Shown: positions 1-53,814, counted from the first letter of the stretch. The stretch is 64,000 nucleotides of DNA from Nemertoderma westbladi (GCA_032718475.1 JAUCBJ010006783.1:7455-71454); one strand, 5' to 3'. Numbers and translations: made by a program. Notes: a model not told the origin generated them from the letters alone.

Positions 1-3000
1 ATACAATAATGTTACATAAATACAATAATGTTACATAAATACAATAATGTTACATAAATACAATAATGTTACATAAATACAATAATGTTACATAAATACA
101 ATAATGTTACATAAATACAATAATGTTACATAAATACAATAATGTTACATAATAATACAATAATGTTACATAAATACAATAATGTTACATAAATACAATA
201 ATGTTACATAAATACAATAATGTTACATAAATACAATAATGTTACATAAATACAATAATGTTACATAAATACAATAATGTTACATAAATACAATAATGTT
301 ACATAAATACAATAATGTTACATAAATACAATAATGTTACATAAATACAATAATGTTACATAAATACAATAATGTTACATAAATACAATAATGTTACATA
401 AATACAATAATGTTACATAAATACAATAATGTTACATAAATACAATAATGTTACATAAATACAATAATGTTACATAAATACAATAATGTTACATAAATAC
501 AATAATGTTACATAAATACAATAATGTTACATAAATACAATAATGTTACATAAATACAATAATGTTACATAAATACAATAATGTTACATAAATACAATAA
601 TGTTACATAAATACAATAATGTTACATAAATACAATAATGTTACATAAATACAATAATGTTACATAAATACAATAATGTTACATAAATACAATAATGTTA
701 CATAAATACAATAATGTTACATAAATACAATAATGTTACATAAATACAATAATGTTACATAAATACAATAATGTTACATAAATACAATAATGTTACATAA
801 ATACAATAATGTTACATAAATACAATAATGTTACATAAATACAATAATGTTACATAAATACAATAATGTTACATAAATACAATAATGTTACATAAATACA
901 ATAATGTTACATAAATACAATAATGTTACATAAATACAATAATGTTACATAAATACAATAATGTTACATAAATACAATAATGTTACATAAATACAATAAT
1001 GTTACATAAATACAATAATGTTACATAAATACAATAATGTTACATAAATACAATAATGTTACATAAATACAATAATGTTACATAAATACAATAATGTTAC
1101 ATAAATACAATAATGTTACATAAATACAATAATGTTACATAAATACAATAATGTTACATAAATACAATAATGTTACATAAATACAATAATGTTACATAAA
1201 TACAATAATGTTACATAAATACAATAATGTTACATAAATACAATAATGTTACATAAATACAATAATGTTACATAAATACAATAATGTTACATAAATACAA
1301 TAATGTTACATAAATACAATAATGTTACATAAATACAATAATGTTACATAAATACAATAATGTTACATAAATACAATAATGTTACATAAATACAATAATG
1401 TTACATAAATAATACAATAATGTTACATAAATACAATAATGTTACATAAATACAATAATGTTACATAAATACAATAATGTTACATAAATACAATAATGTT
1501 ACATAAATACAATAATGTTACATAAATACAATAATGTTACATAAATACAATAATGTTACATAAATACAATAATGTTACATAAACACAATAATGTTACATA
1601 AATACAATAATGTTACATAAATAATACAATAATGTTACATAAATACAATAATGTTACATAAATACAATAATGTTACATAAACACAATAATGTTACATAAA
1701 TACAATAATGTTACATAAATACAATAATGTTACATAAATAAATACAATAATGTTACATAAATACAATAATGTTACATAAATACAATAATGTTACATAAAT
1801 ACAATAATGTTACATAAATACAATAATGTTACATAAATACAATAATGTTACATAAATACAATAATGTTACATAAATACAATAATGTTACATAAATACAAT
1901 AATGTTACATAAACACAATAATGTTACATAAATAAATACAATAATGTTACATAAATACAATAATGTTACATAAATACATTAATGTTACATAAATACAATA
2001 ATGTTACATAAATAAATACAATAATGTTACATAAATACAATAATGTTACATAAATACATTAATGTTACATAAACACAATAATGCTACATAAATACAATAA
2101 TGTTACATAAATAAATACAATAATGTTACATAAATACAATAATGTTACATAAATACAATAATGTTACATAAATACAATAATGTTACATAAATACAATAAT
2201 GTTACATAAACACAATGTTACATAAATACAATAATGTTACATAAATACAATAATGTTACATAAATACAATAATGTTACATAAACACAATAATGTTACATA
2301 AATACAATAATGTTACATAAATACAATAATGTTACATAAATACAATAATGCTACATAAATACAATAATGTTACATAAATAAATACAATAATGTTACATAA
2401 ATAAATACAATAATGTTACATAAATACAATAATGTTACATAAATACAATAATGTTACATAAACACAATAATGTTACATAAATACAATAATGTTACATAAA
2501 TACAATAATGTTACATAAATACAATAATGCTACATAAATACAATAATGTTACATAAATAAATACAATAATGTTACATAAATAAATACAATAATGTTACAT
2601 AAATACAATAATGTTACATAAATACAATAATGTTACATAAATAAATACAATAATGTTACATAAATAAATACAATAATGTTACATAAATACAATAATGTTA
2701 CATAAATACAATAATGTTACATAAATACATTAATGTTACATAAACACAATAATGCCACATAAATACAATAATGTTACATAAATAAATACAATAATGTTAC
2801 ATAAATAAATACAATAATGTTACATAAATACAATAATGTTACATAAACACAATAATGTTACATAAATACAATAATGTTACATAAACACAATAATGTTACA
2901 TAAATAAATACAATAATGTTACATAAACACAATAATGTTACATAAATACAATAATGTTACATAAACACAATAATGTTACATAAATACAATAATGTTACAT

Positions 3001-6000
3001 AAATAAATACAATAATGTTACATAAATAAATACAATAATGTTACATAAATAAATACAATAATGTTACATAAATACAATAATGTTACATAAATACAATAAT
3101 GTTACATAAATAAATACAATAATGTTACATAAATAAATACAATAATGTTACATAAATAAATACAATAATGTTACATAAATACAATAATGTTACATAAATA
3201 AATACAATAATGTTACATAAATAAATACAATAATGTTACATAAATACAATAATGTTACATAAATAAATACAATAATGTTACATAAATACAATAATGTTAC
3301 ATAAATACAATAATGTTACATAAATACATTAATGTTACATAAATACAATAATGCCACATAAATACAATAATGTTACATAAATACAATAATGTTACATAAA
3401 TAAATACAATAATGTTACATAAATACAATAATGTTACATAAACACAATAATGCCACATAAATACAATAATGTTACATAAATAAATACAATAATGTTACAT
3501 AAATAAATACAATAATGTTACATAAATAAATACAATAATGTTACATAAATAAATACAATAATGTTACATAAATACAATAATGTTACATAAATAAATACAA
3601 TAATGTTACATAAATAAATACAATAATGTTACATAAATAAATACAATAATGTTACATAAATACAATAATGTTACATAAATACAATAATGTTACATAAATA
3701 CATTAATGTTACATAAACACAATAATGCCACATAAATACAATAATGTTACATAAATACAATAATGTTACATAAATACAATAATGTTACATAAATACAATA
3801 ATGTTACATAAATACAATAATGTTACATAAATACAATAATGTTACATAAATACATTAATGTTACATAAACACAATAATGCCACATAAATACAATAATGTT
3901 ACATAAATAAATACAATAATGTTACATAAATAAATACAATAATGTTACATAAATAAATACAATAATGTTACATAAATAAATACAATAATGTTACATAAAT
4001 ACAATAATGTTACATAAATACAATAATGTTACAGAAACACAATAATGTTACATAAATACAATAATGTTACATAAATACAATAATGTTACATAAATACAAT
4101 AATGTTACATAAACACAATTATGTTACATAAACACAATGTTACATAAATACAATAATGTTACATAAATACAATAATGTTACATAAATACAATAATGTTAC
4201 ATAAATACAATAATGCCACATAAATACAATAATGTTACATAAACACAATAATGTTACATAAACACAATAATGTTACATAAATACAATAATGTTACATAAA
4301 TACAATAATGTTACATAAACACAATTATGTTACATAAATACAATAATGTTACATAAACACAATAATGTTACATAAATACAATAATGTTACATAAACACAA
4401 TAATGTTAAAGAAACACAATAATGTTACATAAATACAATAATGTTACATAAATACAATAATGTTACATAAATACAATAATGTTACATAAACACAATAATG
4501 TTAAAGAAACACAATAATGTTACATAAATACAATAATGTTACATAAATACAATAATGTTACATAAATACAATAATGTTACATAAACACAATAATGTTAAA
4601 GAAACACAATAATGTTACATAAATACAATAATGTTACATAAATACAATAATGTTACATAAATACAATAATGTTACATAAACACAATAATGTTACATAAAT
4701 ACAATAATGTTACATAAATACAATAATGTTACATAAATGCAATAATGTTACATAAATACAATAATGTTACATAAACACAATAATGTTACATAAATACAAT
4801 AATGTTACATAAACACAATAATGTTAAAGAAACACAATAATGTTACATAAATACAATAATGTTACATAAATACAATAATGTTACATAAACACAATAATGT
4901 TACATAAACACAATAATGTTACATAAACACAATGTTACATAAATACAATAATGTTACATAAATACAATAATGTTACATAAACTAAACACAATAATGTTAC
5001 ATAAATACAATAATGTTACATAAATACAATAATGTTACATAAATACAATAATGTTACATAAATACAATAATGTTACATAAATACAATAATGTTACATAAA
5101 TACAATAATGTTACATAAATACAATAATGTTACATAAATACAATAATGTTACATAAATACAATAATGTTACATAAATACAATAATGTTACATAAATACAA
5201 TAATGTTACATAAATACAATAATGTTACATAAATACAATAATGTTACATAAATACATTAATGTTACATAAACACAATAATGCCACATAAATACAATAATG
5301 TTACATAAATACAATAATGTTACATAAATACAATAATGTTACATAAATACAATAATGTTACATAAATACAATAATGTTACATAAATACATTAATGTTACA
5401 TAAACACAATAATGCCACATAAATACAATAATGTTACATAAATACAATAATGTTACATAAACACAATAATGTTACATAAATACAATAATGTTACATAAAT
5501 ACAATAATGTTACATAAACACAATGTTACATAAATACAATAATGTTACATAAATACATTAATGTTACATAAACACAATAATGTTACATAAATACAATAAT
5601 GTTACATAAATACAATAATGTTACATAAATGCAATAATGTTACATAAATACAATAATGTTACATAAACACAATAATGTTACATAAATACAATAATGTTAC
5701 ATAAATACAATAATGTTACATAAATACAATAATGTTACATAAATACAATAATGTTACATAAATACAATAATGTTACATAAATACATTAATGTTACATAAA
5801 CACAATAATGCCACATAAATACAATAATGTTACATAAATACAATAATGTTACATAAACACAATAATGTTACATAAATACAATAATGTTACATAAATACAA
5901 TAATGTTACATAAACACAATGTTACATAAATACAATAATGTTACATAAATACATTAATGTTACATAAATACAATAATGTTACATAAACACAATAATGTTA

Positions 6001-9000
6001 CATAAATACATTAATGTTACATAAATACATTAATGTTACATAAATACAATAATGTTACATAAACACAATAATGTTACATAAATACATTAATGTTACATAA
6101 ACACAATAATGTTACATAAATACAATAATGTTACATAAACACAATAATGTTACATAAATACAATAATGTTACATAAATACAATAATGTTACATAAACACA
6201 ATGTTACATAAATACAATAATGTTACATAAATACATTAATGTTACATAAATACAATAATGTTACATAAACACAATAATGTTACATAAATACATTAATGTT
6301 ACATAAACACAATAATGTTACATAAATACAATAATGTTACATAAATACAATAATGTTACATAAATGCAATAATGTTACATAAATACAATAATGTTACATA
6401 AACACAATAATGTTACATAAATACAATAATGTTACATAAATACAATAATGTTACATAAATACAATAATGTTACATAAATACAATAATGTTACATAAATAC
6501 AATAATGTTACATAAATACAATAATGTTACATAAATACAATAATGTTACATAAACACAATGTTACATAAATACAATAATGTTACATAAATACATTAATGT
6601 TACATAAATACAATAATGTTACATAAACACAATAATGTTACATAAATACATTAATGTTACATAAACACAATAATGTTACATAAATACAATAATGTTACAT
6701 AAATACAATAATGTTACATAAACACAATGTTACATAAATACAATAATGTTACATAAATACATTAATGTTACATAAATACAATAATGTTACATAAACACAA
6801 TAATGTTACATAAATACATTAATGTTACATAAATACATTAATGTTACATAAATACAATAATGTTACATAAACACAATAATGTTACATAAATACATTAATG
6901 TTACATAAACACAATAATGTTACATAAATACAATAATGTTACATAAACACAATAATGTTACATAAATACAATAATGTTACATAAATACAATAATGTTACA
7001 TAAACACAATGTTACATAAATACAATAATGTTACATAAATACATTAATGTTACATAAATACAATAATGTTACATAAACACAATAATGTTACATAAATACA
7101 TTAATGTTACATAAACACAATAATGTTACATAAATACAATAATGTTACATAAATACAATAATGTTACATAAATTCAATAATGTTACATAAATACAATAAT
7201 GTTACATAAACACAATAATGTTACATAAATACAATAATGTTACATAAATACAATAATGTTACATAAATACAATAATGTTACATAAATACAATAATGTTAC
7301 ATAAATACAATAATGTTACATAAATACATTAATGTTACATAAACACAATAATGCCACATAAATACAATAATGTTACATAAATACAATAATGTTACATAAA
7401 CACAATAATGTTACATAAATACAATAATGTTACATAAATACAATAATGTTACATAAACACAATGTTACATAAATACAATAATGTTACATAAATACATTAA
7501 TGTTACATAAATACAATAATGTTACATAAACACAATAATGTTACATAAACACAATGTTACATAAATACAATTATGTTACATAAACACAATAATGTTACAT
7601 AAATACAATAATGTTACATAAATACAATAATGTTACATAAATGCAATAATGTTACATAAATACAATAATGTTACATAAACACAATAATGTTACATAAATA
7701 CAATAATGTTACATAAACACAATAATGTTAAAGAAACACAATAATGTTACATAAATACAATAATGTTACATAAATACAATAATGTTACATAAACACAATA
7801 ATGTTACATAAACACAATAATGTTACATAAACACAATGTTACATAAATACAATAATGTTACATAAATACAATAATGTTACATAAACTAAACACAATAATG
7901 TTACATAAATACAATAATGTTACATAAATACAATAATGTTACATAAATACAATAATGTTACATAAATACAATAATGTTACATAAATACAATAATGTTACA
8001 TAAATACAATAATGTTACATAAATACATTAATGTTACATAAACACAATAATGCCACATAAATACAATAATGTTACATAAATACAATAATGTTACATAAAT
8101 ACAATAATGTTACATAAATACAATAATGTTACATAAATACAATAATGTTACATAAATACATTAATGTTACATAAACACAATAATGCCACATAAATACAAT
8201 AATGTTACATAAATACAATAATGTTACATAAATACAATAATGTTACATAAACACAATGTTACATAAATACAATAATGTTACATAAATACATTAATGTTAC
8301 ATAAACACAATAATGTTACATAAATACAATAATGTTACATAAATACAATAATGTTACATAAATGCAATAATGTTACATAAATACAATAATGTTACATAAA
8401 CACAATAATGTTACATAAATACAATAATGTTACATAAACACAATAATGTTAAAGAAACACAATAATGTTACATAAATACAATAATGTTACATAAATACAA
8501 TAATGTTACATAAACACAATAATGTTACATAAACACAATAATGTTACATAAACACAATGTTACATAAATACAATAATGTTACATAAATACAATAATGTTA
8601 CATAAACTAAACACAATAATGTTACATAAATACAATAATGTTACATAAATACAATAATGTTACATAAATACAATAATGTTACATAAATACAATAATGTTA
8701 CATAAATACAATAATGTTACATAAATACAATAATGTTACATAAATACAATAATGTTACATAAATACAATAATGTTACATAAATACAATAATGTTACATAA
8801 ATACAATAATGTTACATAAATACAATAATGTTACATAAATACAATAATGTTACATAAATACAATAATGTTACATAAATACATTAATGTTACATAAACACA
8901 ATAATGCCACATAAATACAATAATGTTACATAAATACAATAATGTTACATAAATACAATAATGTTACATAAATACAATAATGTTACATAAATACAATAAT

Positions 9001-12000
9001 GTTACATAAATACATTAATGTTACATAAACACAATAATGCCACATAAATACAATAATGTTACATAAATACAATAATGTTACATAAATACAATAATGTTAC
9101 ATAAACACAATGTTACATAAATACAATAATGCCACATAAATACAATAATGTTACATAAATACAATAATGTTACAGAAACACAATAATGTTACATAAATAC
9201 AATAATGTTACATAAATACAATAATGTTACATAAATACAATAATGTTACATAAACACAATTATGTTACATAAATACAATAATGTTACATAAACACAATTA
9301 TGTTACATAAATACAATAATGTTACATAAACACAATAATGTTACATAAACACAATTATGTTACATAAATACAATAATGTTACATAAACACAATAATGTTA
9401 CATAAACACAATAATGTTACATAAATACAATAATGTTACATAAATACAATAATGTTACATAAATACAATAATGTTACATAAACACAATTATGTTACATAA
9501 ATACAATAATGTTACATAAACACAATAATGTTACATAAACACAATAATGTTACATAAATACAATAATGTTACATAAATACAATAATGTTACATAAATACA
9601 ATAATGTTACATAAACACAATAATGTTACATAAATACAATAATGTTACATAAACACAATTATGTTACATAAATACAATAATGTTACATAAACACAATAAT
9701 GTTACATAAACACAATAATGTTACATAAATACAATAATGTTACATAAATACAATAATGTTACATAAATACAATAATGTTACATAAACACAATTATGTTAC
9801 ATAAATACAATAATGTTACATAAACACAATAATGTTACATAAACACAATAATGTTACATAAACACAATTATGTTACATAAATACAATAATGTTACATAAA
9901 CACAATAATGTTACATAAATACAATAATGTTACATAAATACAATAATGTTACATAAATACAATAATGTTACATAAACACAATTATGTTACATAAATACAA
10001 TAATGTTACATAAACACAATAATGTTACATAAACACAATAATGTTACATAAATACAATAATGTTACATAAATACAATAATGTTACATAAATACAATAATG
10101 TTACATAAACACAATAATGTTACATAAATACAATAATGTTACATAAATACAATAATGTTACATAAATACAATAATGTTACATAAACACAATAATGTTACA
10201 TAAACACAATAATGTTACATAAATACAATAATGTTACATAAATACAATAATGTTACATAAATACAATAATGTTACATAAACACAATAATGTTACATAAAT
10301 ACAATAATGTTACATAAATACAATAATGTTACATAAATACAATAATGTTACATAAACTAAACACAATAATGTTACATAAATACAATAATGTTACATAAAT
10401 ACAATAATGTTACATAAACACAATAATGTTACATAAACACAATAATGTTACATAAATACAATAATGTTACATAAATACAATAATGTTACATAAATACAAT
10501 AATGTTACATAAACACAATAATGTTACATAAATACAATAATGTTACATAAATACAATAATGTTACATAAATACAATAATGTTACATAAACTAAACACAAT
10601 AATGTTACATAAATACAATAATGTTACATAAATACAATAATGTTACATAAATACAATAATGTTACATAAATACAATAATGTTACATAAATACAATAATGT
10701 TACATAAATACAATAATGTTACATAAATACATTAATGTTACATAAACACAATAATGCCACATAAATACAATAATGTTACATAAATACAATAATGTTACAT
10801 AAATACAATAATGTTACATAAATACAATAATGTTACATAAATACAATAATGTTACATAAATACAATAATGTTACATAAATACAATAATGTTACATAAATA
10901 CAATAATGTTACATAAATACATTAATGTTACATAAACACAATAATGCCACATAAATACAATAATGTTACATAAATACAATAATGTTACATAAATACAATA
11001 ATGTTACATAAATACAATAATGTTACATAAATACATTAATGTTACATAAACACAATAATGCCACATAAATACAATAATGTTACATAAATACAATAATGTT
11101 ACATAAATACAATAATGTTACATAAATACAATAATGTTACATAAACACAATAATGCCACATAAATACAATAATGTTACATAAATACAATAATGTTACATA
11201 AATACAATAATGTTACATAAATACAATAATGTTACATAAATACAATAATGTTACATAAATACAATAATGTTACATAAATACAATAATGTTACATAAATAC
11301 ATTAATGTTACATAAACACAATAATGCCACATAAATACAATAATGTTACATAAATAAATACAATAATGTTACATAAATACAATAATGTTACATAAATACA
11401 ATAATGTTACAGAAACACAATAATGTTACATAAATACAATAATGTTACATAAATACAATAATGTTACATAAATACAATAATGTTACATAAACACAATTAT
11501 GTTACATAAACACAATGTTACATAAATACAATAATGTTACATAAATACAATAATGTTACATAAATACAATAATGTTACATAAATACAATAATGCCACATA
11601 AATACAATAATGTTACATAAACACAATGTTACATAAACACAATGTTACATAAACACAATGTTACATAAATACAATAATGTTACATAAATACAATTATGTT
11701 ACATAAACACAATGTTACATAAATACAATAATGTTACATAAACACAATAATGTTACATAAACACAATAATGTTACATAAACACAATAATGTTACATAAAT
11801 ACAATAATGTTACATAAATACAATAATGTTACATAAACACAATAATGTTACATAAATACAATAATGTTACATAAACACAATAATGTTAAAGAAACACAAT
11901 AATGTTACATAAATACAATAATGTTACATAAATACAATAATGTTACATAAATACAATAATGTTACATAAACACAATAATGTTAAAGAAACACAATAATGT

Positions 12001-12604
12001 TACATAAATACAATAATGTTACATAAATACAATAATGTTACATAAATACAATAATGTTACATAAACACAATAATGTTAAAGAAACACAATAATGTTACAT
12101 AAATACAATAATGTTACATAAATACAATAATGTTACATAAATACAATAATGTTACATAAACACAATAATGTTACATAAATACAATAATGTTACATAAATA
12201 CAATAATGTTACATAAATGCAATAATGTTACATAAATACAATAATGTTACATAAACACAATAATGTTACATAAATACAATAATGTTACATAAACACAATA
12301 ATGTTAAAGAAACACAATAATGTTACATAAATACAATAATGTTACATAAATACAATAATGTTACATAAACACAATAATGTTACATAAACACAATAATGTT
12401 ACATAAACACAATGTTACATAAATACAATAATGTTACATAAATACAATAATGTTACATAAATACAATAATGTTACATAAACATAATAGTGTTACATAAAT
12501 ACAATAATGTTACATAAATACAATAAATAATGCCACATAAATACAATAATGTTACATAAATACAATAATGTTACATAAATACAATAATGTTACATAAATA
12601 CAAT
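1..12604. repeat. AT-rich 19-bp tandem satellite (ATACAATAATGTTACATAA)n, roughly 650 copies, runs off the left edge
   Basis: 19-bp period read directly. Variants include +AAAT (23 bp), -AAT (16 bp), T>C (AAACAC), CATTAAT, GCCAC and AAAGAAAC. The array ends at ~12604, about 110 bp before a splice acceptor. Confidence 0.99.
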
Positions 12605-12716
12605 GGCGTTTACGTTTACTTAAAATGGTCAAAAACTGCCTGATCAAAAAATAGTTTAAATAGTTTCATATCGAGCAGATGAAATAAATACAATTTAGAA
12701 CACAATTGGTTTACAG

Positions 12717-12865
12717 GGAACACGATGAAATCAAAGAACATGCTGACCAGGTGGATAAGACCCCGTTGTTAATGGCGACCGCTTCCATGTGGACCAGACC
12801 ACAGCTCGGCGAGTTTAAAACAATGGTTAAATCCGACACAGAGAGTGTGCTTCGCATTGGTAGAG
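12717..12865 (+). CDS. ACBD3: ACBD3/GCP60 (Golgi resident protein) penultimate coding exon, start of the GOLD domain
   Basis: Acceptor TTTACAG|G at 12716/12717 and donor G|GTCAGT at 12865/12866. Translation EHDEIKEHADQVDKTPLLMATASMWTRPQLGEFKTMVKSDTESVLRIGRG matches the recalled ACBD3 segment [28 protein letters not shown]. It joins the 37430 exon in phase (G|GG = Gly). Confidence 0.9.
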
Positions 12866-12971
12866 GTCAGTCAGTATACTCGTATATGAGTTGATAATAT
12901 TGTATGTAGTTGCTGAGTTTTAGCTCAAATTGATAAAGTTAAGTTACCGATGATCGTGATAGTTGAACATG

Positions 12972-23880: not shown

Positions 23881-24134
23881 TGTTGAAAGTGTACGATTAA
23901 ATAATGTACTCTAAGGTGGGCGGGAAATTCAAAACTGTCCTTTTGACTATGATCTATATATGACTGGATTATACCGTACCGGTCCGGTTTTGTTCTATAA
24001 CTTTTGTACTTTGTCTGCAGTACCTTCCATGTAATGGTTCTGCATTATGTACAATATACTGTAACCCTACAATAAACTGCTGGTGTATGTAATCCCAATA
24101 TTTCCCTATTTGTTCTGCCGGATAAAATTCAACA
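23881..24134 (+). repeat. Copia copy A 5' LTR (254 bp)
   Basis: TG...CA ends with a 7-bp inverted terminus. Identical to 28305-28558. AATAAA at 24071-24076. Confidence 0.98.
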
Positions 24135-24148
24135 GGTTATGGGCCCAG
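24135..24148 (+). promoter_or_regulatory. Primer-binding site GGTTATGGGCCCAG (internal initiator-tRNA-Met fragment type, as in Drosophila copia)
   Basis: Directly abuts the 5' LTR. The motif is the recalled copia-type half-tRNAiMet PBS. Confidence 0.85.
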
Positions 24149-24250
24149 GCTGCTAAACCACTACCGGGAATAAAATTAGTGCAGGGAAGTTTCAAATATT
24201 GGGATAGGTAAATTACCCAGTAAAAGCTGTAACAAACTCGCATTTTGAGA

Positions 24251-27200: not shown

Positions 27201-28276
27201 GGAATAGGAGACTTGATAAAGTCCTTAAAGGAGAGGGTTACAGACAATCGGGGGCTGATAACTGTATTTATGTTAAGAAAGTAGATAACAGATTCATCCT
27301 ATTGTCAGTATACGTGGATGACTTGATTATTGCATCAAATTGCATCGATCTACTCAATGAAGAGAAAACACTATTGATGTCAAAGTTTCAGATGACTGAT
27401 CAAGGTGAGATAGAATATATACTAGGAATGGTTATCACAAGGAATCGTCAATCAAAGGAAATGTCAATTTCTCAGAGTCAATACCTGAAAGACATCTTGT
27501 ACCGCTTTGGGATGGACTGTTGTAATCCAGTGTCAACTCCTATGGAAGTTAATGCGAAGTTTGATAAACTCGCAGATGATGATGAGGGTATCGATACTGC
27601 ACTGTACCAAGCAGTTATTGGAAGCTTGCTATATGCCGCGATTGGAACTAGACCAGATATTGCTCAGGCTGTGGGCGTTTTATCTCATTTTGTATCTAAA
27701 CCTGGAGCGACACACTGGGCAGGCATCAAGCGTTTACTACGATACATAAAGGGGACAGTGGATTACGGAATCAAATTCGTTGGAAACGACAATGGACTAT
27801 TGGTCGGATATTGTGATTCTGACTGGGCTGGGGACGAGTCAAATCGCAAATCCACATCTGGTTATGTGTTTACATTCAATGGAGGGGCCATAAGTTGGCA
27901 AAGTAAACAACAACCTGTTGTTGCGTTATCAACCACTGAGGCTGAATACATTGCTCTAACTTCAGCATGCCAAGAATACATCTGGTTGAGCAGATTGCTG
28001 GCTGATATTGGGATGGCTCATCTCAATAGCGGAACTATATATGAGGATAACCAGGGGGCGATTGCGTTGGCTAAGAATCCAATTCAACATCGTCGAACGA
28101 AGCACATAGATATCCGCTACCACTTCATCAGGGAGAAGATCGAGAATGGTGAAGTGGATATTAAATACTGCCCAACTCAAAACATGATGGCTGATATTCT
28201 CACAAAGGGACTAGCACGGGAGAAATTCTTAGGATTACGCCATAAACTGGGTGTAATGAACCAAATAGTTCCCTAA
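24251..28276 (+). CDS. Copia Gag-Pol polyprotein (~1341 aa from the first ATG)
   Basis: Zn knuckle CYNCGNKGHWKRDC; protease WCIDSGASQHM; integrase HHCC (WHQRYGH...CESC) and DDE (HSDVCGP, SDNGGEY, NGIAERLNRTL); RT YVDD; RNase H (YCDSDWAG, TEAEY, YEDNQGA, ADILTK). No stops. Confidence 0.98.
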   Translation: MSEVTIKDEFRIAKFNGENYHDWKFQMELLLIAKDLWGYADGTEVLDPAAEDARRTAFRRGDNRARAIICLNMETDQQVYVRNATTAKEAWTSLRDHFEKTTLAHVVMYRRRLYNLILKEGDSVLTHVNEIRKLSDHLREIGDPVQERDLIVILLSSLPPLFASLVTSLEGSDLDTLTWGSVRDRCLHEEEKSKQFINRDKLTENAFTASAGGSSTKKSPMFKSPSSSSHNKKSGGGDKPGKCYNCGNKGHWKRDCYKPPKFGQKGKQSSLGQNEHAEVAEENGMECGIALITSMTGTADWCIDSGASQHMTFDKSKYNSFKELEPPRPILLGDNRVVNAVGTGNIHIEVAVEGKLRSITLKDVLYLPELRRNLFSVRAANKAAKGVEVIFTNDECIVMVNGCKEIIGKLNGKLYQFHENDYLNIAAEKVDINLWHQRYGHLNYDSLKQLINKNMISGMKMAGENDKLCESCIIGKHHRLPFPTKEAESKEREILELVHSDVCGPLPTESIGGSRYFVTFTDDRSRYIMEFCIRNKSSVFEKFKEYVATAENATGKRVKILRSDNGGEYTSNEFNNYCSERGIQREFSVPHTPQQNGIAERLNRTLMESVRSMLHNSSLPKCFWAEAVSTAVYLRNRSPTSVIRGKTPYEVWHDHKPDVSNLRVFGCDAYIHIPDKTRKKLDAKSIRCRFVGYCNEHKGYKFFCPESKKMLVSRDVKFIENNFAKTAKEVYDELGDSHVFSIPQNTETRDPVGAQHLYGDDGHNVVAGGAPIEINRYPRREHREPESDPGVIRGNWWETRDWRHDLIPQASDNAEFAMIIESDEPRTYDEASQGPYNKQWKEAMDNEINSLTENNTWNLVELPNDKNLVGSKWTYKIKRDSKGNVSRFKARLVAQGYSQKQGIDFKEVFAPVARYSSIRLLLAITNELNLDVHQLDVKTAFLNGVIDSNIYMKQPQGYIDKEYPNSVCKLNRSIYGLKQSARLWNRRLDKVLKGEGYRQSGADNCIYVKKVDNRFILLSVYVDDLIIASNCIDLLNEEKTLLMSKFQMTDQGEIEYILGMVITRNRQSKEMSISQSQYLKDILYRFGMDCCNPVSTPMEVNAKFDKLADDDEGIDTALYQAVIGSLLYAAIGTRPDIAQAVGVLSHFVSKPGATHWAGIKRLLRYIKGTVDYGIKFVGNDNGLLVGYCDSDWAGDESNRKSTSGYVFTFNGGAISWQSKQQPVVALSTTEAEYIALTSACQEYIWLSRLLADIGMAHLNSGTIYEDNQGAIALAKNPIQHRRTKHIDIRYHFIREKIENGEVDIKYCPTQNMMADILTKGLAREKFLGLRHKLGVMNQIVP

Positions 28277-28304
28277 CTCACGAGATAATTGAATCGAGTG
28301 GGAG

Positions 28305-28558
28305 TGTTGAAAGTGTACGATTAAATAATGTACTCTAAGGTGGGCGGGAAATTCAAAACTGTCCTTTTGACTATGATCTATATATGACTGGATTATACCG
28401 TACCGGTCCGGTTTTGTTCTATAACTTTTGTACTTTGTCTGCAGTACCTTCCATGTAATGGTTCTGCATTATGTACAATATACTGTAACCCTACAATAAA
28501 CTGCTGGTGTATGTAATCCCAATATTTCCCTATTTGTTCTGCCGGATAAAATTCAACA
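28305..28558 (+). repeat. Copia copy A 3' LTR (254 bp)
   Basis: Identical to the 5' LTR, preceded by the PPT and followed by TSD GGGCT. Confidence 0.98.
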
Positions 28559-31500
28559 GGGCTCACTAGAGTAGTCTGGTTGGGTGGGCTCATTAGAGTA
28601 GTCTGGTTGGGTGGACTCACTAGAGTAGTCTGGTTTGGTGAGCTCACAGAGTAGTCTGGTTGGGTGGGCTGACTACAGAGTAGTCTGGTTGGGTGGGCTC
28701 ACTAGAGCAATCTGGTTGGGTGGGCTCACTACAGTAGTCTGGTTGGGTGGGCTCACTAGAGTAGTCTGGTTGGTTGGGTGGGTTTACTAGAGTAGTCTGG
28801 TTGGGTGGGCTCACTAGAGTAGTCTGGTTGGGTGGGCTCACTATAGAGTAATCGGTTGGGTGGGCTCACTAGAGTAGTCTGTTGGGTGGGCTCACTAGAG
28901 TAGTCTGGTTGTGTGTGCTCACTAGAGTAGTCTGGTTGGGTGGGCTCACTAGAGTAGTCTGGTTGGGTGGGCTCACTAGAGTAGTCGGCTGGGTGGGCTC
29001 ACTAGAGTAGTCTGGTTGTGTGGGCTCACTAGAGTAGTCTAGTTGGGTGGGCTCACTAGAGTAGTCTGGTTGGGTGGGCTCACTAGAGTAGTCTGGTTGG
29101 GTGGGCTCACTAGATTAGTTTGGTTGGGTGGGCTCACTAGAGTAGTCTGGTTGGGTGGGCTCACAGAGTAGTCTGGTTGGGTGGGCTCACTACAGAGTAG
29201 TCTGGTTGGGTGGGCTCACTAGAGCAATCTGGTTGGGTGGGCTCACTAGAATAGTCTGGTTGCGTGGGCTCACTAGAGTAGTCTGGTTAGGTGGGCTCAC
29301 TAGAGTAGTCTGGTTGTGTGGGCTCACTAGAGTAGTCTGGTTGGGTGGGCTCACTAGAGTAGTCTGGTTGGGTGGGCTCACTAGAGTAGTCTGGTTGGGT
29401 GGGCTCACTAGAGTAGTCTGGTTGGGTGGGCTCACTAGAGTAGTCTGGTTGGGTGGGTCCACTAGAGTAGTCTGGTTGGGTGGGCTCACTAGAGTAGTCT
29501 GGTTGGGTGGGCTCACTAGAGTAGTCTGGTTGGGTGGGTCCACTAGAGTAGTCTGGTTGGGTGGGCTCACTAGAGTAGTCTGTTTGGGTGGGTCCACTAG
29601 AGTAGTCTGGTTTGGTGGGTGGGTTCACTAGAGTAGTCTGGTTGGGTGGGCTCACTAGAGTAGTCTGGTTGGGTGGGCTCACTAGAGTAGTCTGGTTAGG
29701 TGGGCTCACTAGAGTAGTATGGTTGGGTGGGTCCACTAGAGTAGTCTGGTTGGGTGGGCTCACTAGAGTAGTCTGGTTGGGTGGGCTCACTAGAGTAGTC
29801 TGGTTGGGTGGGTCCACTAGAGTAGTCTGGTTGGGTGGGCTCACTAGAGTAGTCTGGTTGGGTGAGTCCACTAGAGTAGTCTGGTTGGGTGGGCTCACTA
29901 GAGTAGTCTGGTTGGGTGGGCTCACTAGAGTAGTCTGGTTGGTTGGGCTCACTAGAGTAGTCTGGTTGTGTGGGCTCACTAAGAGTAGTCTGGTTGGGTG
30001 CGCTCACTAAAGTAGTCGGGTTGGGTGGGCTCACTAGAGTAGTCTGGTTGGGTGGGCTCACTAGAGTAGTCTGGTTGGGTGGGCTCACTAGAGTAGTCTG
30101 GTTGGGTGGGTCCACTAGAGTAGTCTGGTTGGGTGGGCTCACTAGAGTAGTGTGTTTGGGTGGGCTCACTAGAGTAGTCTGGTTGGGTGGGTCCACTAGA
30201 GTAGTCTGGTTGGTTGGGCTCACTAGAGAAGTCTGGTTGGGTGGGCTCACTAGAGTAGTCTGGTTGGGTGGGCTCACTAGAGTAGTCTGGTTGGGTGGGT
30301 CCACTAGAGTAGTCTGGTTGGGTGGGCTCACTAGAGTAGTCTGGTTGGGTGGGCTCACTAGAGTAGTCTGGTTGGGTGGGTCCACTAGAGTAGTCTGGTT
30401 GGGTGGGCTCACTAGAGTAGTCTGGTTGGGTGGGTCCACTAGAGTAGTCTGGTTGGGTGGGCTCACTAGAGTAGTCTGGTTGGGTGGACTCACTAGAGTA
30501 GTCTGGTTTGGTGAGCTCACAGAGTAGTCTGGTTGGGTGGGCTCACTACAGAGTAGTCTGGTTGGGTGGGCTCACTAGAGCAATCTGGTTGGGTGGACTC
30601 ACTAGAGCAATCTGGTCGGGTGGGCTCACTGGAGTAGTCTGGTTGGGTGGGCTCACTAGATTAGTCTGGTTAGGTGGGCTCATTATAGTAGTCTGGTTGG
30701 GTGACTCACTAGAGTAGTCTGGTTGGGTGGGCTCACTAGAGTAGTCTGGTTGGGTGGGCTCACTAGAGTAGTCTGGTTGGGTGGGCTCCACTAGAGTAGT
30801 CTGGTTGGGTGGGCTCACTAGAGTAGTCTGGTTGGGTGGGTCCACTAGAGTAGTCTGGTTGGGTGGGCTCACTAGAGTAGTCTGGTTGGGTGGACTCACT
30901 AGAGTAGTCTGGTTTGGTGAGCTCACAGAGTAGTCTGGTTGGGTGGGCTCACTACAGAGTAGTCTGGTTGGGTGGGCTCACTATAGCAATCTGGTTGGGT
31001 GGACTCACTGGAGCAATCTGGTTGGGTGGGCTCACTAGAATAGTCTGGTTGCGTGGGCTCACTAGAGTAGTCTGGTTGGGTGGGCTCACTAGAGTAGTCT
31101 GGTTGGGTGGGTCCACTAGAGTAGTCTGGTTGGGTGGGCTCACTAGAGTAGTCTGGTTGGGTGGGTCCACTAGAGTAGTCTGGTTGGGTGGGCTCACTAG
31201 AGTAGTCTGGTTGGGTGGGCTCACTAGAGTAGTCTGGTTGGGTGGGCTCACAGAGTAGTCTGGTTGGGTGGGCTCACTACAGAGTAGTCTGGTTGGGTGG
31301 GCTCACTAGAGCAATCTGGTTGGGTGGGCTCACTAGAATAGTCTGGTTGCGTGGGCTCACTAGAGTAGTCTGGTTAGGTGGGCTCACTAGAGTAGTCTGG
31401 TTGTGTGGGCTCACTAGAGTAGTCTGGTTGGGTGGGCTCACTAGAGTAGTCTGGTTGGGTGCGCTCACTAAAGTAGTCGGGTTGGGTGGGCTCACTAGAG

Positions 31501-34500
31501 TAGTCTGGTTGGGTGGGCTCACTAGAGTAGTCTGGTTGGGTGGGCTCACTAGAGTAGTCTGGTTGGGTGGGTCCACTAGAGTAGTCTGGTTGGGTGGGCT
31601 CACTAGAGTAGTCTGTTTGGGTGGGCTCACTAGAGTAGTCTGGTTGGGTGGGTCCACTAGAGTAGTCTGGTTGGTTGGGCTCACTAGAGAAGTCTGGTTG
31701 GGTGGGCTCACTAGAGTAGTCTGGTTGGGTGGGCTCACTAGAGTAGTCTGGTTGGGTGGGTCCACTAGAGTAGTCTGGTTGGGTGGGCTCACTAGAGTAG
31801 TCTGGTTGGGTGGGCTCACTAGAGTAGTCTGGTTGGGTGGGTCCACTAGAGTAGTCTGGTTGGGTGGGCTCACTAGAGTAGTCTGGTTGGGTGGGTCCAC
31901 TAGAGTAGTCTGGTTGGGTGGGCTCACTAGAGTAGTCTGGTTGGGTGGACTCACTAGAGTAGTCTGGTTTGGTGAGCTCACAGAGTAGTCTGGTTGGGTG
32001 GGCTCACTACAGAGTAGTCTGGTTGGGTGGGCTCACTAGAGCAATCTGGTTGGGTGGACTCACTAGAGCAATCTGGTCGGGTGGGCTCACTAGAGTAGTC
32101 TGGTTGGGTGGGCTCACTAGATTAGTCTGGTTAGGTGGGCTCATTATAGTAGTCTGGTTGGGTGACTCACTAGAGTAGTCTGGTTGGGTGGGCTCACTAG
32201 AGTAGTCTGGTTGGGTGGGCTCACTAGAGTAGTCTGGTTGGGTGGGTCCACTAGAGTAGTCTGGTTGGATGGGCTCACTAGAGTAGTCTGGTTGGGTGGG
32301 TCCACTAGAGTAGTCTGGTTGGGTGGGCTCACTAGAGTAGTCTGGTTGGGTGGACTCACTAGAGTAGTCTGGTTTGGTGAGCTCACAGAGTAGTCTGGTT
32401 GGGTGGGCTCACTACAGAGTAGTCTGGTTGGGTGGGCTCACTATAGCAATCTGGTTGGGTGGACTCACTGGAGCAATCTGGTTGGGTGGGCTCACTAGAA
32501 TAGTCTGGTTGCGTGGGCTCACTAGAGTAGTCTGGTTGGGTGGGCTCACTAGAGTAGTCTGGTTGGGTGGGTCCACTAGAGTAGTCTGGTTGGGTGGGCT
32601 CACTAGAGTAGTGTGGTTGGGTGGGTCCACTAGAGTAGTCTGGTTGGGTGGGCTCACTAGAGTAGTCTGGTTGGGTGGGCTCACTAGAGTAGTCTGGTTG
32701 GGTGGGCTCACAGAGTAGTCTGGTTGGGTGGGCTCACTACAGAGTAGTCTGGTTGGGTGGGCTCACTAGAGCAATCTGGTTGGGTGGTCTCACTAGAATA
32801 GTCTGGTTGCGTGGGCTCACTAGAGTAGTCTGGTTAGGTGGGCTCACTAGAGTAGTCTGGTTGTGTGGGCTCACTAGAGTAGTCTGGTTGGGTGGGCTCA
32901 CTAGAGTAGTCTGGTTGGGTGGGCTCACTAGAGTAGTCTGGTTGGGTGGGCTCACTAGAGTAGTCTGGTTGGGTGGGCTCACTAGAGTAGTCTGGTTGGG
33001 TGGGTCCACTAGAGTAGTCTGGTTGGGTGGGCTCACTAGAGTAGTCTGGTTGGGTGGGCTCACTAGAGTAGTCTGGTTGGGTGGGTCCACTAGAGTAGTC
33101 TGGTTGGGTGGGCTCACTAGAGTAGTCTGTTTGGGTGGGTCCACTAGAGTAGTCTGGTTGGGTGGGTGGGTTCACTAGAGTAGTCTGGTTGGGTGGGCTC
33201 ACTAGAGTAGCCTGGTTAGGTGGGCTCACTAGAGTAGTCTGGTTAGGTGGGCTCACTAGAGTAGTCTGGTTGGGTGGGTCCACTAGAGTAGTCTGGTTGG
33301 GTGGGCTCACTAGAGTAGTCTGGTTGGGTGGGCTCACTAGAGTAGTCTGGTTGGGTGGGTCCACTAGAGTAGTCTGGTTGGGTGGGCTCACTAGAGTAGT
33401 CTGGTTGGGTGGACTCACTAGAGTAGTCTGGTTTGGTGAGCTCACAGAGTAGTCTGGTTGGGTGGGCTCACTACAGAGTAGTCTGGTTGGGTGGGCTCAC
33501 TAGAGCAATCTGGTTGGGTGGGCTCACTAGAATAGTCTGGTTGGGTGGGCTCACTAGAGCAATCTGGTTGGGTGGGCTCACTAGAATAGTCTGTTTGCGT
33601 GGGCTCACTAGAGTAGTCTGGTTAGGTGGGCTCACTAGAGTAGTCTGGTTGGGTGGGCTCACTAGAGTAGTCTGGTTGGGTGGGCTCACTAGAGTAGTCT
33701 GGTTGGGTGGGCTCACTAGAGTAGTCTGGTTGGGTGGGTCCACTAGAGTAGTCTGGTTGGGTGGGCTCACTAGAGTAGTCTGGTTGGGTGGGCTCACTAG
33801 AGTAGTCTGGTTGGGTGGGTCCACTAGAGTAGTCTGGTTGGGTGGGCTCACTAGAGGAGTCTGTTTGGGTGGGTCCACTAGAGTAGTCTGGTTGGGTGGG
33901 TGGGTTCACTAGAGTAGTCTGGTTGGGTGGGCTCACTAGAGTAGCCTGGTTAGGTGGGCTCACTAGAGTAGTCTGGTTAGGTGGGCTCACTAGAGTAGTC
34001 TGGTTGGGTGGGTCCACTAGAGTAGTCTGGTTGGGTGGGCTCACTAGAGTAGTCTGGTTGGGTGGGCTCACTAGAGTAGTCTGGCAGGGTGGGTCCACTA
34101 GAGTAGTCTGGTTGGGTGGGCTCACTAGAGTAGTCTGGTTGGGTGGGTCCACTAGAGTAGTCTGGTTGGGTGGGCTCACTAGAGTAGTCTGGTTGGGTGG
34201 GCTCACTAGAGTAGTCTGGTTGGTTGGGCTCACTAGAGTAGTCTGGTTGTGTGGGCTCACTAAGAGTAGTCTGGTTGGGTGCGCTCACTAAAGTAGTCGG
34301 GTTGGGTGGGCTCACTAGAGTAGTCTGGTTGGGTGGGCTCACTAGAGTAGTCTGGTTGGGTGGGCTCACTAGAGTAGTCTGGTTGGGTGGGTCCACTAGA
34401 GTAGTCTGGTTGGTTGGGCTCACTAGAGTAGTCTGTTTGGGTGGGCTCACTAGAGTAGTCTGGTTGGGTGGGTCCACTAGAGTAGTCTGGTTGGTTGGGC

Positions 34501-35882
34501 TCACTAGAGAAGTCTGGTTGGGTGGGCTCACTAGAGTAGTCTGGTTGGGTGGGCTCACTAGAGTAGTCTGGTTGGGTGGGTCCACTAGAGTAGTCTGGTT
34601 GGGTGGGCTCACTAGAGTAGTCTGGTTGGGTGGGCTCACTAGATTAGTCTGGTTGGGTGGGTCCACTAGAGTAGTCTGGTTGGGTGGGCTCACTAGAGTA
34701 GTCTGGTTGGGTGGGTCCACTAGAGTAGTCTGGTTGGGTGGGCTCACTAGAGTAGTCTGGTTGGGTGGACTCACTAGAGTAGTCTGGTTTGGTGAGCTCA
34801 CAGAGTAGTCTGGTTGGGTGGGCTCACTACAGAGTAGTCTGGTTGGGTGGGCTCACTAGAGTAGTCTGGTTGTGTGGGCTCACTAGAGTAGTCTGGTTGG
34901 GTGGGCTCACTAGAGTAGTCTGGTTGGGTGGGCTCACTAGAGTAGTCTGGTTGGGTGGGCTCACTAGAGTAGTCTGGTTGGGTGGGCTCACTAGAGTAGT
35001 CTGGTTGGGTGGGCTCACTAGAGTAGTCTGGTTGGGTGGGCTCACTAGAGTAGTCTGGTTGGGTGGGTCCACTAGAGTAGTCTGGTTGGGTGGGCTCACT
35101 AGAGCAATCTGTTTGGGTGGACTCACTAGAGCAATCTGGTCGGGTGGGCTCACTAGAGTAGTCTGGTTGGGTGGGCTCACTAGAGTAGTCTGGTTGGGTG
35201 GGCTCATTAGAGTAGTCTGGTTGGGTGGACTCACTAGAGTAGTCTGGTTGGGTGGGCTCACTAGAGTAGTCTGGTTGGGTGGGCTCACTAGAGTAGTCTG
35301 GTTGGGTGGGTCCACTAGAGTAGTCTGGTTGGGTGGGCTCACTAGAGTAGTCTGGTTGGGTGTGTCCACTAGAGTAGTCTGGTTGGGTGGGCTCACTAGA
35401 GTAGTCTGGTTGGGTGGACTCACTAGAGTAGTCTGGTTTGGTGAGCTCACAGAGTAGTCTGGTTGGGTGGGCTCACTACAGAGTAGTCTGGTTGGGTGGG
35501 CTCACTAGAGCAATCTGGTTGGGTGGACTCACTAGAGCAATCTGGTCTGGTGGGCTCACTAGAGTAGTCTGGTTGGGTGGGCTCACTAGAGTAGTCTGGT
35601 TGGGTGGGCTCACTAGAGTAGTCTGGTTGGGTGGACTCACTAGAGTAGTCTGGTTTGGTGAGCTCACAGAGTAGTCTGGTTGGGTGGGCTGACTACAGAG
35701 TAGTCTGGTTGGGTGGGCTCACTAGAGCAATCTGGTTGGGTGGGCTCACTACAGTAGTCTGGTTGGGTGGGCTCACTAGAGTAGTCTGGTTAGGTGGGCT
35801 CACTAGAGTAGTCTGATTGGGTGGGCTCACTAGAGTAGTCTGGTTGCGTGGGTCCACTAGAGTAGTCTTGTTGGGTAAGCTC
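28559..35882. repeat. G-rich 27-bp tandem satellite, right part, intronic
   Basis: The same unit resumes in register after the Copia TSD. The last unit is degenerate (AGTAGTCTTGTTGGGTAAGCTCA). Confidence 0.99.
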
Positions 35883-37429
35883 ATCAATACGAAATTGTAT
35901 CTGGATCAAAAATGTAAAGTCTTAAATTTTCTTCGGCCGTTAGGCCAGGCATGGGGACGCACAAAGTTTGACGACTTATTCCCAGTGCGGTCCCCCCTAA
36001 CTATATATTCCCCACAGGAAGGTCCATACTCATTTAGCTACTATTTATGGATGCCATGCAGAGGTGCGCCCTGGCTAGACCCTGCAAAGCATTCGTGCCG
36101 AAACGATAACCGATCTGGACCCCATGAGGGGGTTGAACCCATGCGGGGGACCCCGAAGATCGGCACAGGATCGAACCCAAAATACCAAACGAATCGCTGC
36201 CAATTTCGATTCATTACTTTTATCGCCTCATGTCGTCGGTGCATTTTAACAAGTCGCATGAGTGTCTGATAACTTATAATTCAACCAAAATATTACGATA
36301 TATTAATAACAATATTATTTTTTATTATGTTCAATTGGGTCAAGTCTGGGATTTTCACTCACTTTACGACATGTTGTTATATTATTTTGTAACAGTGAAC
36401 CCTATTAGACACTTAGGGAGTGGCCTTAACTAACTATAAAGATTATTATTCGTTGTACTTCTAGTAATGTAAGAACTGAGCATGTCTTTAGTGAACCACA
36501 CCCTGTTTATTGGTATCCATTTATACTTGGTGCCCCAGCTGCATCCACTGCTCAATTCTAACGCCCAATAAACGAGGCAGTACAACTTGATACATTATTA
36601 TAGGGATTCTCGCATGGATGACAGAATGCTGTTGTTTCTTTTGTGTAAAGGTGCCGCCGCCTTAAGGGGTGTGTAGCTAATGGGGGGGAATACTATACTG
36701 ATATATTGTTTTAAAGTAGTGTGAATATTATTATCGAATTGGTGTTAGTTTTTTTGTAGTTAAAAGGTGGGCAAAATATATCTCGTGTTAATTAATAACC
36801 ATTACCGGTACTCAACAACAAATAAATCCAAAATCAAGTAACGATGGAATTCACTATGCGACCACTAAGCCACGAGAAGAATACCAGGTTTTTCACCAAG
36901 AACGCAGGTTACAGAAGGGCTGAATCTAACCAAAACAATAAACCAATTAGTATATGTACAGGTTATAACACAGAAATAAGCGCTAAAGCATTTAATAAAG
37001 TTAAATTAAAAAAATAAAAAATCTTCATATATAAAATCCAAATAAAAAGTCGACCGAAAAGTGAAAAAAAAAGAAATCTTGGTATTCTTCACATGGGCGC
37101 CACGAAGTATCTCCCACTATATATTAATATATGGAAGGAAGGGGAGGGGAGGGGTGGGGGGCTGTCGGGGTAATCCATCAAAGTATCAGTTTCAGTGGTA
37201 AAACCCTTTATTTTATTGGCTATACTACTGTAGTTGGTTGATATAGTCATATGAATGAGGTTGTAGTTCATCGAGGAATATTTTCCACCACATTAAAATT
37301 AAAACCTTATTTTTTTATATGATCTGTTTGATCTCGATAAGGTAAATTCGTGTTATTTACACTGGGAGGGTCAGAAACTCATGTAAACGACTATTAATTC
37401 CAGTGGTTATTTATCATTATTATCTTTAG

Positions 37430-37842
37430 GGGAGACAGTAACAGTTCGAGTACCGACTCACGACCAAGGTTCCTGTCTGTTCTGGGAGTTCGCGACAGAC
37501 TCCTACGATATCGGGTTCGGTCTCTACTTCGAGTGGACCGTGGCCGCGAGCAACACGGTCAGCGTCCACGTCAGCGAGGACGACTCGTTCGACGAAGAGG
37601 AAGATGAAGATGAGGATCGCGACCGCACGGACCCCGAGGTCGGTGGTGGGAGCGCCACCCAGCGGGCCTCCCGGGTACCCACCGACGAGGTGATCCCGGT
37701 ATACCGACGCGACTGCCACACAGAGGTCTACGTCGGCTCGCACATCTACCCCGGCCGCGGGGTCTACCTACTGAAGTTCGATAACTCGTACTCGTTGTTC
37801 CGGGGGAAGACTCTCTATTACCGGGTCTATTATACGCGGTGA
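37430..37842 (+). CDS. ACBD3: ACBD3/GCP60 terminal coding exon (GOLD domain)
   Basis: Acceptor TATCTTTAG|GG. Translation [35 protein letters not shown]...VSVHVSE(acidic run)...[52 protein letters not shown] matches the recalled ACBD3 C-terminus. The YYRVYYTR ending favours ACBD3 over the paralogue TMED8. Confidence 0.95.
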
Positions 37843-53600: not shown

Positions 53601-53814
53601 GTCCGTATGTCCTGATCGAGGTGCTATTGGCGGCTACGAGGGGCGGACCGCTTCCGCCCGCGCGTGCCTCGTGCGTCATAGCCGGGATGACGCTGACCTC
53701 GGCCCCGGTGTCCACCAGAAACCGTTGCCCGGACAGTCGGTCCAGGACAAATAGCAGCAGATCGGGGTGGCCGGCCGTAGCAGCTGCTACTGACGGCCGG
53801 CCGGGGCGTTTCCC
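50628..53814 (-). pseudogene. Gypsy Pol (protease-RT-RNaseH-integrase), -1 frame to gag, disrupted by a 28-bp duplication
   Basis: [41 protein letters not shown] and ADALSR lie in ORF 51733-53877. Integrase (CVPCQ, HIDLVGP, SDRGSQF, NGLVERFHR, GPY) continues in ORF 50628-52133. Confidence 0.93.
53765..53814 (-). promoter_or_regulatory. -1 ribosomal frameshift signal: slippery G GGA AAC plus downstream GC hairpin
   Basis: Heptamer at 53814-53808 in the correct gag phase, a 5-nt spacer, then the stem-loop GGCCGGCC-GTCA-GTAGC-AGCT-GCTAC-GGCCGGCC. Pol is open in the -1 frame. Confidence 0.85.

What the first reader, a model, noticed from the sequence alone, without database searches (positions are those of the whole stretch)
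1..37842. Conserved housekeeping gene ACBD3 with giant satellite-filled introns, a different satellite in each intron
Seen: a 149-bp exon with canonical splice sites lies in a ~370-bp unique island between >12.6 kb of an AT-rich 19-mer array and ~18 kb of an unrelated G-rich 27-mer array. It joins the terminal exon in phase (G|GG) across a 24,564-bp intron, and the protein is intact. Both arrays stop ~105-110 bp from the splice sites. Known: satellite-driven intron gigantism is best described for Drosophila Y-linked fertility genes. Inference: intron-specific satellite expansion here affects an ordinary Golgi gene, and the ~100-bp buffers reflect selection for splicing.
Basis: partly seen in the sequence, partly recalled or inferred. 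Interest (0 to 1): 0.85.

Follow-up and report, generated by a model that had tools for sequence, protein, structure and literature searches.

The report
Stuttering satellite introns in invertebrate ACBD3
In an invertebrate animal, the Golgi gene ACBD3 has a 24.6-kb intron filled by a 27-base repeat and a jumping gene, and a different 19-base repeat in the intron before it; a public run that behaves as RNA joins the exons correctly, so this is likely an invertebrate case of the locally grown 'stuttering' intron repeats known from birds, not a splicing device.

Summary
The anatomy is confirmed. Exons 12717-12865 and 37430-37842 encode the ACBD3/GCP60 GOLD domain. Run X4, which behaves as RNA, has a contig joining 12865 to 37430 exactly. 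The 24,564-nt intron is 74% 27-mer array and 19% an intact, very young copia element. Array edges recur in a second sample.

The third array-to-splice-site gap is 1,546 nt, not about 110. The Drosophila Y-loop is not the closest comparison: avian 'sequence stuttering' (PMC12954441) already describes intron-private repeat blocks walled in by exons in intact genes.

Rough depth hints: the 27-mer is compatible with this locus alone and about 25-fold scarcer in a second sample. The 19-mer totals at least 25 kb, probably 200-500 kb, so the upstream intron may be truly giant or the repeat is not private.

The scan found similar arrays before on other DNA: unchecked notes list 12 other genes in this genome and two octopus loci. 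New member of a known kind.

The parts
1..12604 (+). AT-rich 19-bp tandem array in the intron upstream of the small exon; runs off the window start; nearly pure consensus in the first 2 kb, more variants towards the exon
   Evidence: 657 copies, 93% matches; consensus-unit share 0.97 and 0.89 in the first two kb, 0.32-0.74 after; internal exact duplications up to 795 nt
12605..12716 (+). 112-nt unique intron end with the AG acceptor
   Evidence: single-copy depth in X1 and X2
12717..12865 (+). 149-nt ACBD3/GCP60 exon (linker and start of GOLD domain)
   Evidence: phmmer to ACBD3/GCP60 chains, 5 of 5 hits, E 8e-6 to 3e-5; X4 contig starts matching at 12717 with an 86-nt loose end that is not in the window
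12866..37429 (+). 24,564-nt GT-AG intron, phase 1
   Evidence: spliced out in the X4 contig
12974..23880 (+). G-rich 27-bp array, block 1 (10,907 nt); begins with three 36-37-nt units 108 nt behind the donor
23881..28558 (+). Intact Ty1/copia LTR retrotransposon in sense orientation; identical 254-nt LTRs, 5-nt target duplication, one 1,347-codon frame
   Evidence: landed in one of four long copies of a repeat cassette (empty site matches 616, 515 and 410 nt at 14527, 18893, 22875)
28564..35883 (+). 27-bp array, block 2 (7,320 nt), same variant cassettes as block 1
   Evidence: 3' edge bridged by contigs of X1 (35817-36903) and X2 (35817-36709)
35884..37429 (+). 1,546 nt of non-array intron with two high-copy interspersed repeats (about 35940-36120; 36870-37096 with 23-nt inverted ends, MITE-like)
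37430..37842 (+). Terminal coding exon, GOLD_2 domain, to the stop; 3' UTR follows to at least 38231
   Evidence: Pfam PF13897 E 1.4e-63; ACBD3/GCP60 structures E 2e-54 to 4e-53; X4 contig identical over 37428-38231

Best explanation
This is an ACBD3 gene, spliced across its last intron in run X4, whose introns hold two unrelated tandem arrays that likely grew on the spot by neutral, intron-confined repeat turnover, the same kind of process as avian 'intron stuttering'. Shown: exons, splice junction, two array families, nested kb-scale duplications inside the arrays, and a copia element that landed after those duplications. Inferred: a short duplication seeded each unit inside a small intron, and slippage plus unequal exchange or gene conversion built cassettes of 0.7-4.3 kb. 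Exchanges that cross an exon would delete or double it and be purged, so each family would stay in its own intron. Inferred: the spliceosome finds the exon by exon definition from the short unique flanks, and the arrays offer few strong decoys. Inferred from unchecked notes: this is a genome-wide habit of the species, not a property of ACBD3. Suggested only: alleles differ many-fold in array length.
For: Junction in X4. The 27-mer array is a mosaic of 74 unit types in repeated cassettes, with exact internal duplications of 1,488, 1,157 and 605 nt, offsets such as 734, 1,461 and 4,338 nt, and odd units at the edges, as expected of unequal exchange. X1 summed depth converts to roughly 7-21 kb of 27-mer against 18.2 kb assembled, so no large second locus is needed (rough). 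X2 has a different haplotype in the flank (8 other letters and a 3-nt gap in 890 nt) and about 12-14 single-copy equivalents of 27-mer depth against 275-330 in X1, while its 19-mer depth is as high as X1's. A 66-nt contig of depth 746 in X1 and 21 in X2 fits a perfect 36-nt tandem, 21 of whose 36 words are absent from the window, which hints at another allele. Decoys: 14 AG in 12.6 kb of 19-mer; no YAG behind six pyrimidines in either array. Avian stuttering: each intron has its own locally expanded motifs, exons intact, lengths vary between individuals (PMC12954441).
Against: Depth of laid contigs is, by the tool's own warning, no copy number; the conversion spans 25-560 kb for the 19-mer and 1-21 kb for the 27-mer in X1, depending on contig length. 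X3, the same sample as X2, shows even less of both arrays, so library drop-out can mimic a short allele. The 19-mer is far more abundant than the window shows and may lie at other loci. X4 is another sample, whose allele may be short, so splicing of the 24.6-kb copia-bearing allele is not shown. The sense strand carries 36 AATAAA in the 19-mer array and 8 in the copia, and 20 GTRAG in the 27-mer array, so decoy signals are not purged. The contigs that join the island to the arrays reach only 29 and 30 letters into them, just under the tool's 31-letter rule. No whole genome is held, so the genome-wide claim is untested here.
Confidence: 0.72

Rival explanations
1. One reading: intron-specific satellite gigantism of the Y-loop kind, with a ~110-nt exclusion zone kept by selection for splicing.
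For: Both gaps beside the small exon are alike, 112 and 108 nt. From general knowledge, branch point, pyrimidine tract and donor-side enhancers lie within about 100 nt of an exon. The 19-mer family may be hundreds of kb.
Against: Third gap is 1,546 nt; two gaps are no distribution. With 1,654 nt of non-array, non-copia intron, a seed within 110 nt of either end has a chance of about 13% under even seeding, so the array is, if anything, close to the exon, not excluded. Unchecked notes list arrays that include the splice site in other genes of this genome. Y-loop introns are megabase-sized.
Confidence: 0.1
2. The gene sits in or beside heterochromatin, and a general chromosomal satellite (the 19-mer) plus transposons have invaded it, as with the Drosophila autosomal genes Pzl, Myo81F and Mitf.
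For: 19-mer depth is thousands of times single copy in X1 and X2. The 26 kb downstream holds a LINE remnant, a second copia and a gypsy element, and no host gene was found among the frames scanned. Autosomal giant-intron genes with repeats are known (PMC11207136 passages).
Against: The 27-mer fits one locus. Only 1 of 128 laid X1 contigs and 1 of 1,167 X2 contigs at the 19-mer edge fit in part, against 443 of 1,564 and 495 of 2,498 on the stretch with dispersed repeats, a weak hint of few 19-mer loci.
Confidence: 0.13
3. Assembly artefact: arrays misjoined to the exon or inflated in length.
For: The window starts inside the 19-mer array; no listed record spans either array; X2 and X3 show little 27-mer.
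Against: The 428-nt island contig with both repeat edges occurs in X1 and in X2, a different sample and study; the 3' edge is bridged in both. The longest exact internal duplication is 1,488 nt, and the copia has a clean target duplication. X1 depth fits the assembled size within about threefold.
Confidence: 0.05

Closest known systems
Avian 'sequence stuttering', intron type (Hron et al. 2026, PMC12954441; abstract, passages, first parts of sections 7 and 8 read)
   Same: Each intron holds its own locally expanded tandem motifs, walled in by intact exons; units of tens of bases; length variation between individuals (here only suggested); GC-rich coding sequence (terminal exon GC3 0.77, small exon 0.53) and G-run-rich units.
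   Different: Here a non-vertebrate animal; arrays more regular (93% and 78% matches, the latter across the copia) and long: 18 kb and at least 12.6 kb, against 1.6-2.9 kb for the chicken PHF8 example and a median span of 1,751 bp for exon stuttering. No dot-chromosome context can be tested.
Human intronic VNTR TRACT in CACNA1C (PMC13131567, abstract only)
   Same: About 30-bp unit, array of 3-30+ kb inside an intron of an ordinary gene, variant-unit mosaics, alleles of very different length.
   Different: One array in an already large intron; here arrays make up most of two neighbouring introns.
Amphioxus 'mirage' minisatellites (PMC3087553, passages)
   Same: Gene-private tandem arrays at or near exons in an invertebrate deuterostome, tolerated by splicing, unstable in length.
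   Different: Mirage units span the exon-intron boundary. Neither unit here resembles the exon or its boundaries beyond chance (27 of 28 tests p>0.05; one p=0.018, antisense, AT-rich).
Drosophila Y-loop genes kl-3, kl-5 and autosomal Pzl, Myo81F, Mitf (PMC6508621, PMC11207136; passages)
   Same: Satellite-filled introns that are transcribed and spliced out.
   Different: Megabase introns of simple satellites shared between loci, with a spermatocyte-specific programme; here 24.6 kb for the one intron seen whole.

Membership tests
ACBD3/GCP60 | C-terminal GOLD domain of the GOLD_2 type with the preceding linker | tested here: met
   best named relatives are GCP60-like proteins, 125 of 161 identical to the Glandiceps protein
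ACBD3/GCP60 | N-terminal acyl-CoA-binding and Q-rich domains | not testable with these tools
   upstream exons are not in the window; no genome held; X4 contig has only 86 nt upstream
Avian-type sequence stuttering | Locally expanded tandem motifs confined to single introns, exons intact | tested here: met
   neither unit is found beyond its own intron in the window (word profile)
Avian-type sequence stuttering | Repeat is local, not a dispersed family | tested here: inconclusive
   27-mer depth fits one locus; 19-mer exceeds the visible array at least twofold and probably more than 15-fold
Avian-type sequence stuttering | Extensive length variation between individuals | tested here: inconclusive
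   about 25-fold less 27-mer depth in X2 than X1, but X3 shows that drop-out occurs
Avian-type sequence stuttering | Occasional units copied from exon edges (not required of every intron) | tested here: not met
   at this locus; unchecked notes report it for other genes of this genome
Mirage minisatellites | Unit spans an exon-intron boundary | tested here: not met
   arrays start 108-112 nt from the exon
Drosophila Y-loop intron gigantism | Introns of hundreds of kb to megabases | tested here: inconclusive
   last intron 24.6 kb (not met); upstream intron open-ended, 19-mer family possibly 200-500 kb
Drosophila Y-loop intron gigantism | Y linkage and spermatocyte-specific expression programme | not testable with these tools
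   no chromosome or tissue data
Ty1/copia LTR retrotransposon (insert) | TG..CA LTRs, 5-nt target duplication, gag-protease-integrase-RT order with RVT_2 | tested here: met

The most novel reading that the evidence does not exclude
The whole 19-mer family (about 200-500 kb) lies in this one intron, and the 27-mer intron differs some 25-fold between individuals. A non-vertebrate animal near the deuterostomes would then carry genome-wide intron stuttering at 10-100 times the avian scale, giving housekeeping genes Y-loop-sized, individually variable introns that short-read assemblies collapse.
Probability: 0.3. Interest if true: 0.68.

Novelty: new member of a known kind. Interest (0 to 1): 0.37.

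Why it matters
As a single locus it is an ordinary gene with tolerated repeat growth. Its value is as one data point for a genome in which many housekeeping introns seem to stutter. Hron et al. describe stuttering in birds and mention gerbils; my searches listed no paper reporting it at this scale in a non-vertebrate animal. If alleles of one intron run from about 1 to 25 kb, the species offers natural allelic series for testing what intron length and repeat content cost in transcription time, splicing and premature polyadenylation. It would also mean that intron-size statistics from short-read assemblies of such animals are too low.

Tried and rejected
Whole-genome search: no genome held, so no genome-wide repeat scan, no upstream exons, no search for a diverged paralogue. 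Compact second copy: none seen; exon depth equals flank depth in X1 and X2 and no other DNA contig lies on the exons at 88-90% likeness; a more diverged copy is not excluded. No run is on record as RNA (no RNA holder listed); X4 is labelled 'DNA?' and is called RNA-like only because it covers exons and UTR, joins them at GT-AG and has no depth in unique intron bins. X3 has no cover of the island; no finding drawn. Mirage origin of either unit: a by-eye likeness of the acceptor region to the 19-mer did not beat shuffles (p 0.27-0.33). Calibrating copy number by simulated contigs gave 4- to 340-fold excess for the 19-mer depending on the unknown length cut-off; only brackets are reported. Further exons inside the arrays or downstream: tblastn of 122 proteins found only the two exons. 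Pfam on 10 further frames: 0 of 10 hits. Rfam on 35800-64000: none. Canonical short-loop G-quadruplex motif in the 27-mer array: 0; with loops up to 21 nt, 230; not tested further. Species: the tree places the protein with hemichordates and crinoids (99/87) on a long branch of 1.31 (90 of 120 hits used, one left out as a repeat-bearing model and the rest lacking the anchor motif; no vertebrate or xenacoelomorph rows), so the lineage is unresolved. As a comparator only, a xenacoelomorph genome paper gives median intron 131 nt and has no hit for 'satellite' or 'tandem' (PMC11521371 passages). Earlier-findings look-ups near this window and by the 19-mer sequence returned nothing. No supplements were read; they could hold larger avian array sizes.

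Full report
Observation. Tandem Repeats Finder gives a 19-bp array at 1-12604 and a 27-bp array from about 12974 to 35883. Between them lie 369 unique bases holding a 149-nt exon at 12717-12865 with AG before and GT after; joined to 37430 it reads openly to the stop at 37842 across a 24,564-nt intron. The small exon matches ACBD3/GCP60 chains up to the residue where the terminal exon's match begins; the terminal exon is a GOLD_2 domain. Only the last 185 residues are in the window; tblastn of 122 proteins found no further exon.

Splicing. Of 8 runs listed, 4 hold the terminal exon, from 3 studies; none is on record as RNA. X4 behaves as RNA: depth 412 on both exons and the UTR, none on unique intron sequence. 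A contig of 1,037 nt lies on 12717-12876 and one of the same length and depth on 37428-38231; the record coordinates abut exactly at 12865 and 37430, and the loose end behind the small exon is terminal-exon sequence. An 86-nt loose end before 12717 is presumably the previous exon, which is not in the window. Caveat: X4 is another sample, and its allele of the intron may be short.

Are the arrays real? X1 (perhaps the source) and X2 (another sample and study) each have a 428-nt contig over 12576-13003 that carries both repeat edges, reaching 29 and 30 letters into them, just under the tool's 31-letter rule. The 3' edge of the 27-mer array is bridged by 67 letters in both. The array is a mosaic of 74 unit types in nested cassettes; its longest exact internal duplication is 1,488 nt. 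A copia element at 23881-28558 has identical 254-nt LTRs, a 5-nt target duplication and one long frame. Its empty site matches three other cassette copies over 410-616 nt, so it landed after the cassettes had multiplied. Misassembly is unlikely.

How large and how private? Summed contig depth is no copy number, so these are brackets. For the 27-mer, X1 gives about 7-21 kb if laid contigs are 40-110 nt, which fits the assembled 18.2 kb and needs no second locus. X2 gives 0.3-0.8 kb, about 25-fold less, though its 19-mer depth is as high as X1's and its flank haplotype differs. A 66-nt contig of depth 746 in X1 and 21 in X2 fits a perfect 36-nt tandem that the window largely lacks, which points to another allele. 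Against this, X3, the same sample as X2, shows still less of both arrays, so drop-out is a live rival. For the 19-mer, the floor is 25 kb in X1 and 33 kb in X2, and 190-520 kb if contigs are 40-60 nt. Either the upstream intron is far larger than the window shows or the family occurs elsewhere. The near-pure first 2 kb and the near absence of partly fitting contigs lean weakly to one or few long arrays.

The buffer. Gaps are 112, 108 and 1,546 nt. Without array and copia the intron is 1,654 nt, including two high-copy interspersed repeats. An array seeded in so small an intron must have short flanks, and the chance of lying within 110 nt of an end is about 13%. Two values show no exclusion zone. 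Neither unit derives detectably from the exon or its boundaries. The arrays are poor in strong acceptor decoys but carry donor-like and AATAAA motifs.

Mechanism. Best reading (0.72): neutral, intron-confined turnover. A short duplication seeds a unit; slippage and unequal exchange or gene conversion build kb-scale cassettes; exchanges across an exon would be purged, so each family stays in its intron; exon definition lets splicing ignore the filler; transposons land in it. The anatomy, the junction, the cassettes and the order of events are shown. The mutational route, the role of exon definition and the length polymorphism are inferred.

Comparison. [quoted passage not shown] The human CACNA1C repeat matches in unit and array size (PMC13131567, abstract). 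Amphioxus mirages are the exon-edge form, not met here (PMC3087553, passages). Drosophila Y-loop introns are megabase-sized, and three autosomal examples exist (PMC6508621; PMC11207136; passages). The organism is an animal whose protein groups with hemichordates and crinoids on a long branch; the lineage is unresolved.

Earlier notes. Unchecked notes on other pieces of this genome describe large intronic arrays in 12 other genes among the rows shown, nearly all built from splice junctions; 73 of 79 notes fit my first word search. Two notes describe the same pattern in octopus genes. I could not test these; they make a genome-wide habit more likely than a property of ACBD3, and they argue against a general buffer.

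Verdict. Real, spliced, and a new member of a known kind; interest 0.37. The bolder case, a private intron of several hundred kb with many-fold allelic variation, has probability about 0.3.

Noticed in passing
window 40518-45178 (-): Second copy of the same copia family, 99.2% identical to the intronic one, with identical LTRs and its own 5-nt target duplication; its long frame ends early (984 codons, inside the RT). It lies just upstream of a LINE-type RT frame at 39006-40385 (-). The family looks recently active.
   Followed up: partly
window 50421-54798 (-): Gypsy-type LTR element (181-nt LTRs, 99.4% alike; RT, RNase H, integrase; GC about 65%) inserted into a ~2-kb repeat whose uninterrupted copy lies at 62038-63994.
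   Followed up: partly
window 36870-37096: MITE-like element with 23-nt inverted ends; summed depth up to 134,000-373,000 in DNA runs X1-X3 against single-copy depth of 7-25, so thousands of copies; also present in X4. A second high-copy repeat lies at about 35940-36120.
   Followed up: partly
window 12974-13083: The 27-mer array begins with three 36-37-nt units; X1 appears to hold about 30 single-copy equivalents of a perfect 36-nt tandem absent from this assembly, perhaps on the other allele.
   Followed up: partly
window 23881-28558 (+): The copia lies in sense orientation within the intron and brings 8 AATAAA motifs, a possible cause of premature polyadenylation; whether it is present in other individuals was not tested.
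   Followed up: no
window 35760-35850: RNA-like run X4 has a trace of the 27-mer (depth about 3-5) but none of the far more abundant 19-mer; unexplained, possibly intron RNA or drop-out of AT-rich sequence.
   Followed up: no
window 37843-38460: X4 depth steps down along the 3' UTR (412, 228, 50), with AATAAA-type hexamers at 38119 and 38546; possible alternative 3' ends, though contigs cannot show ends.
   Followed up: no
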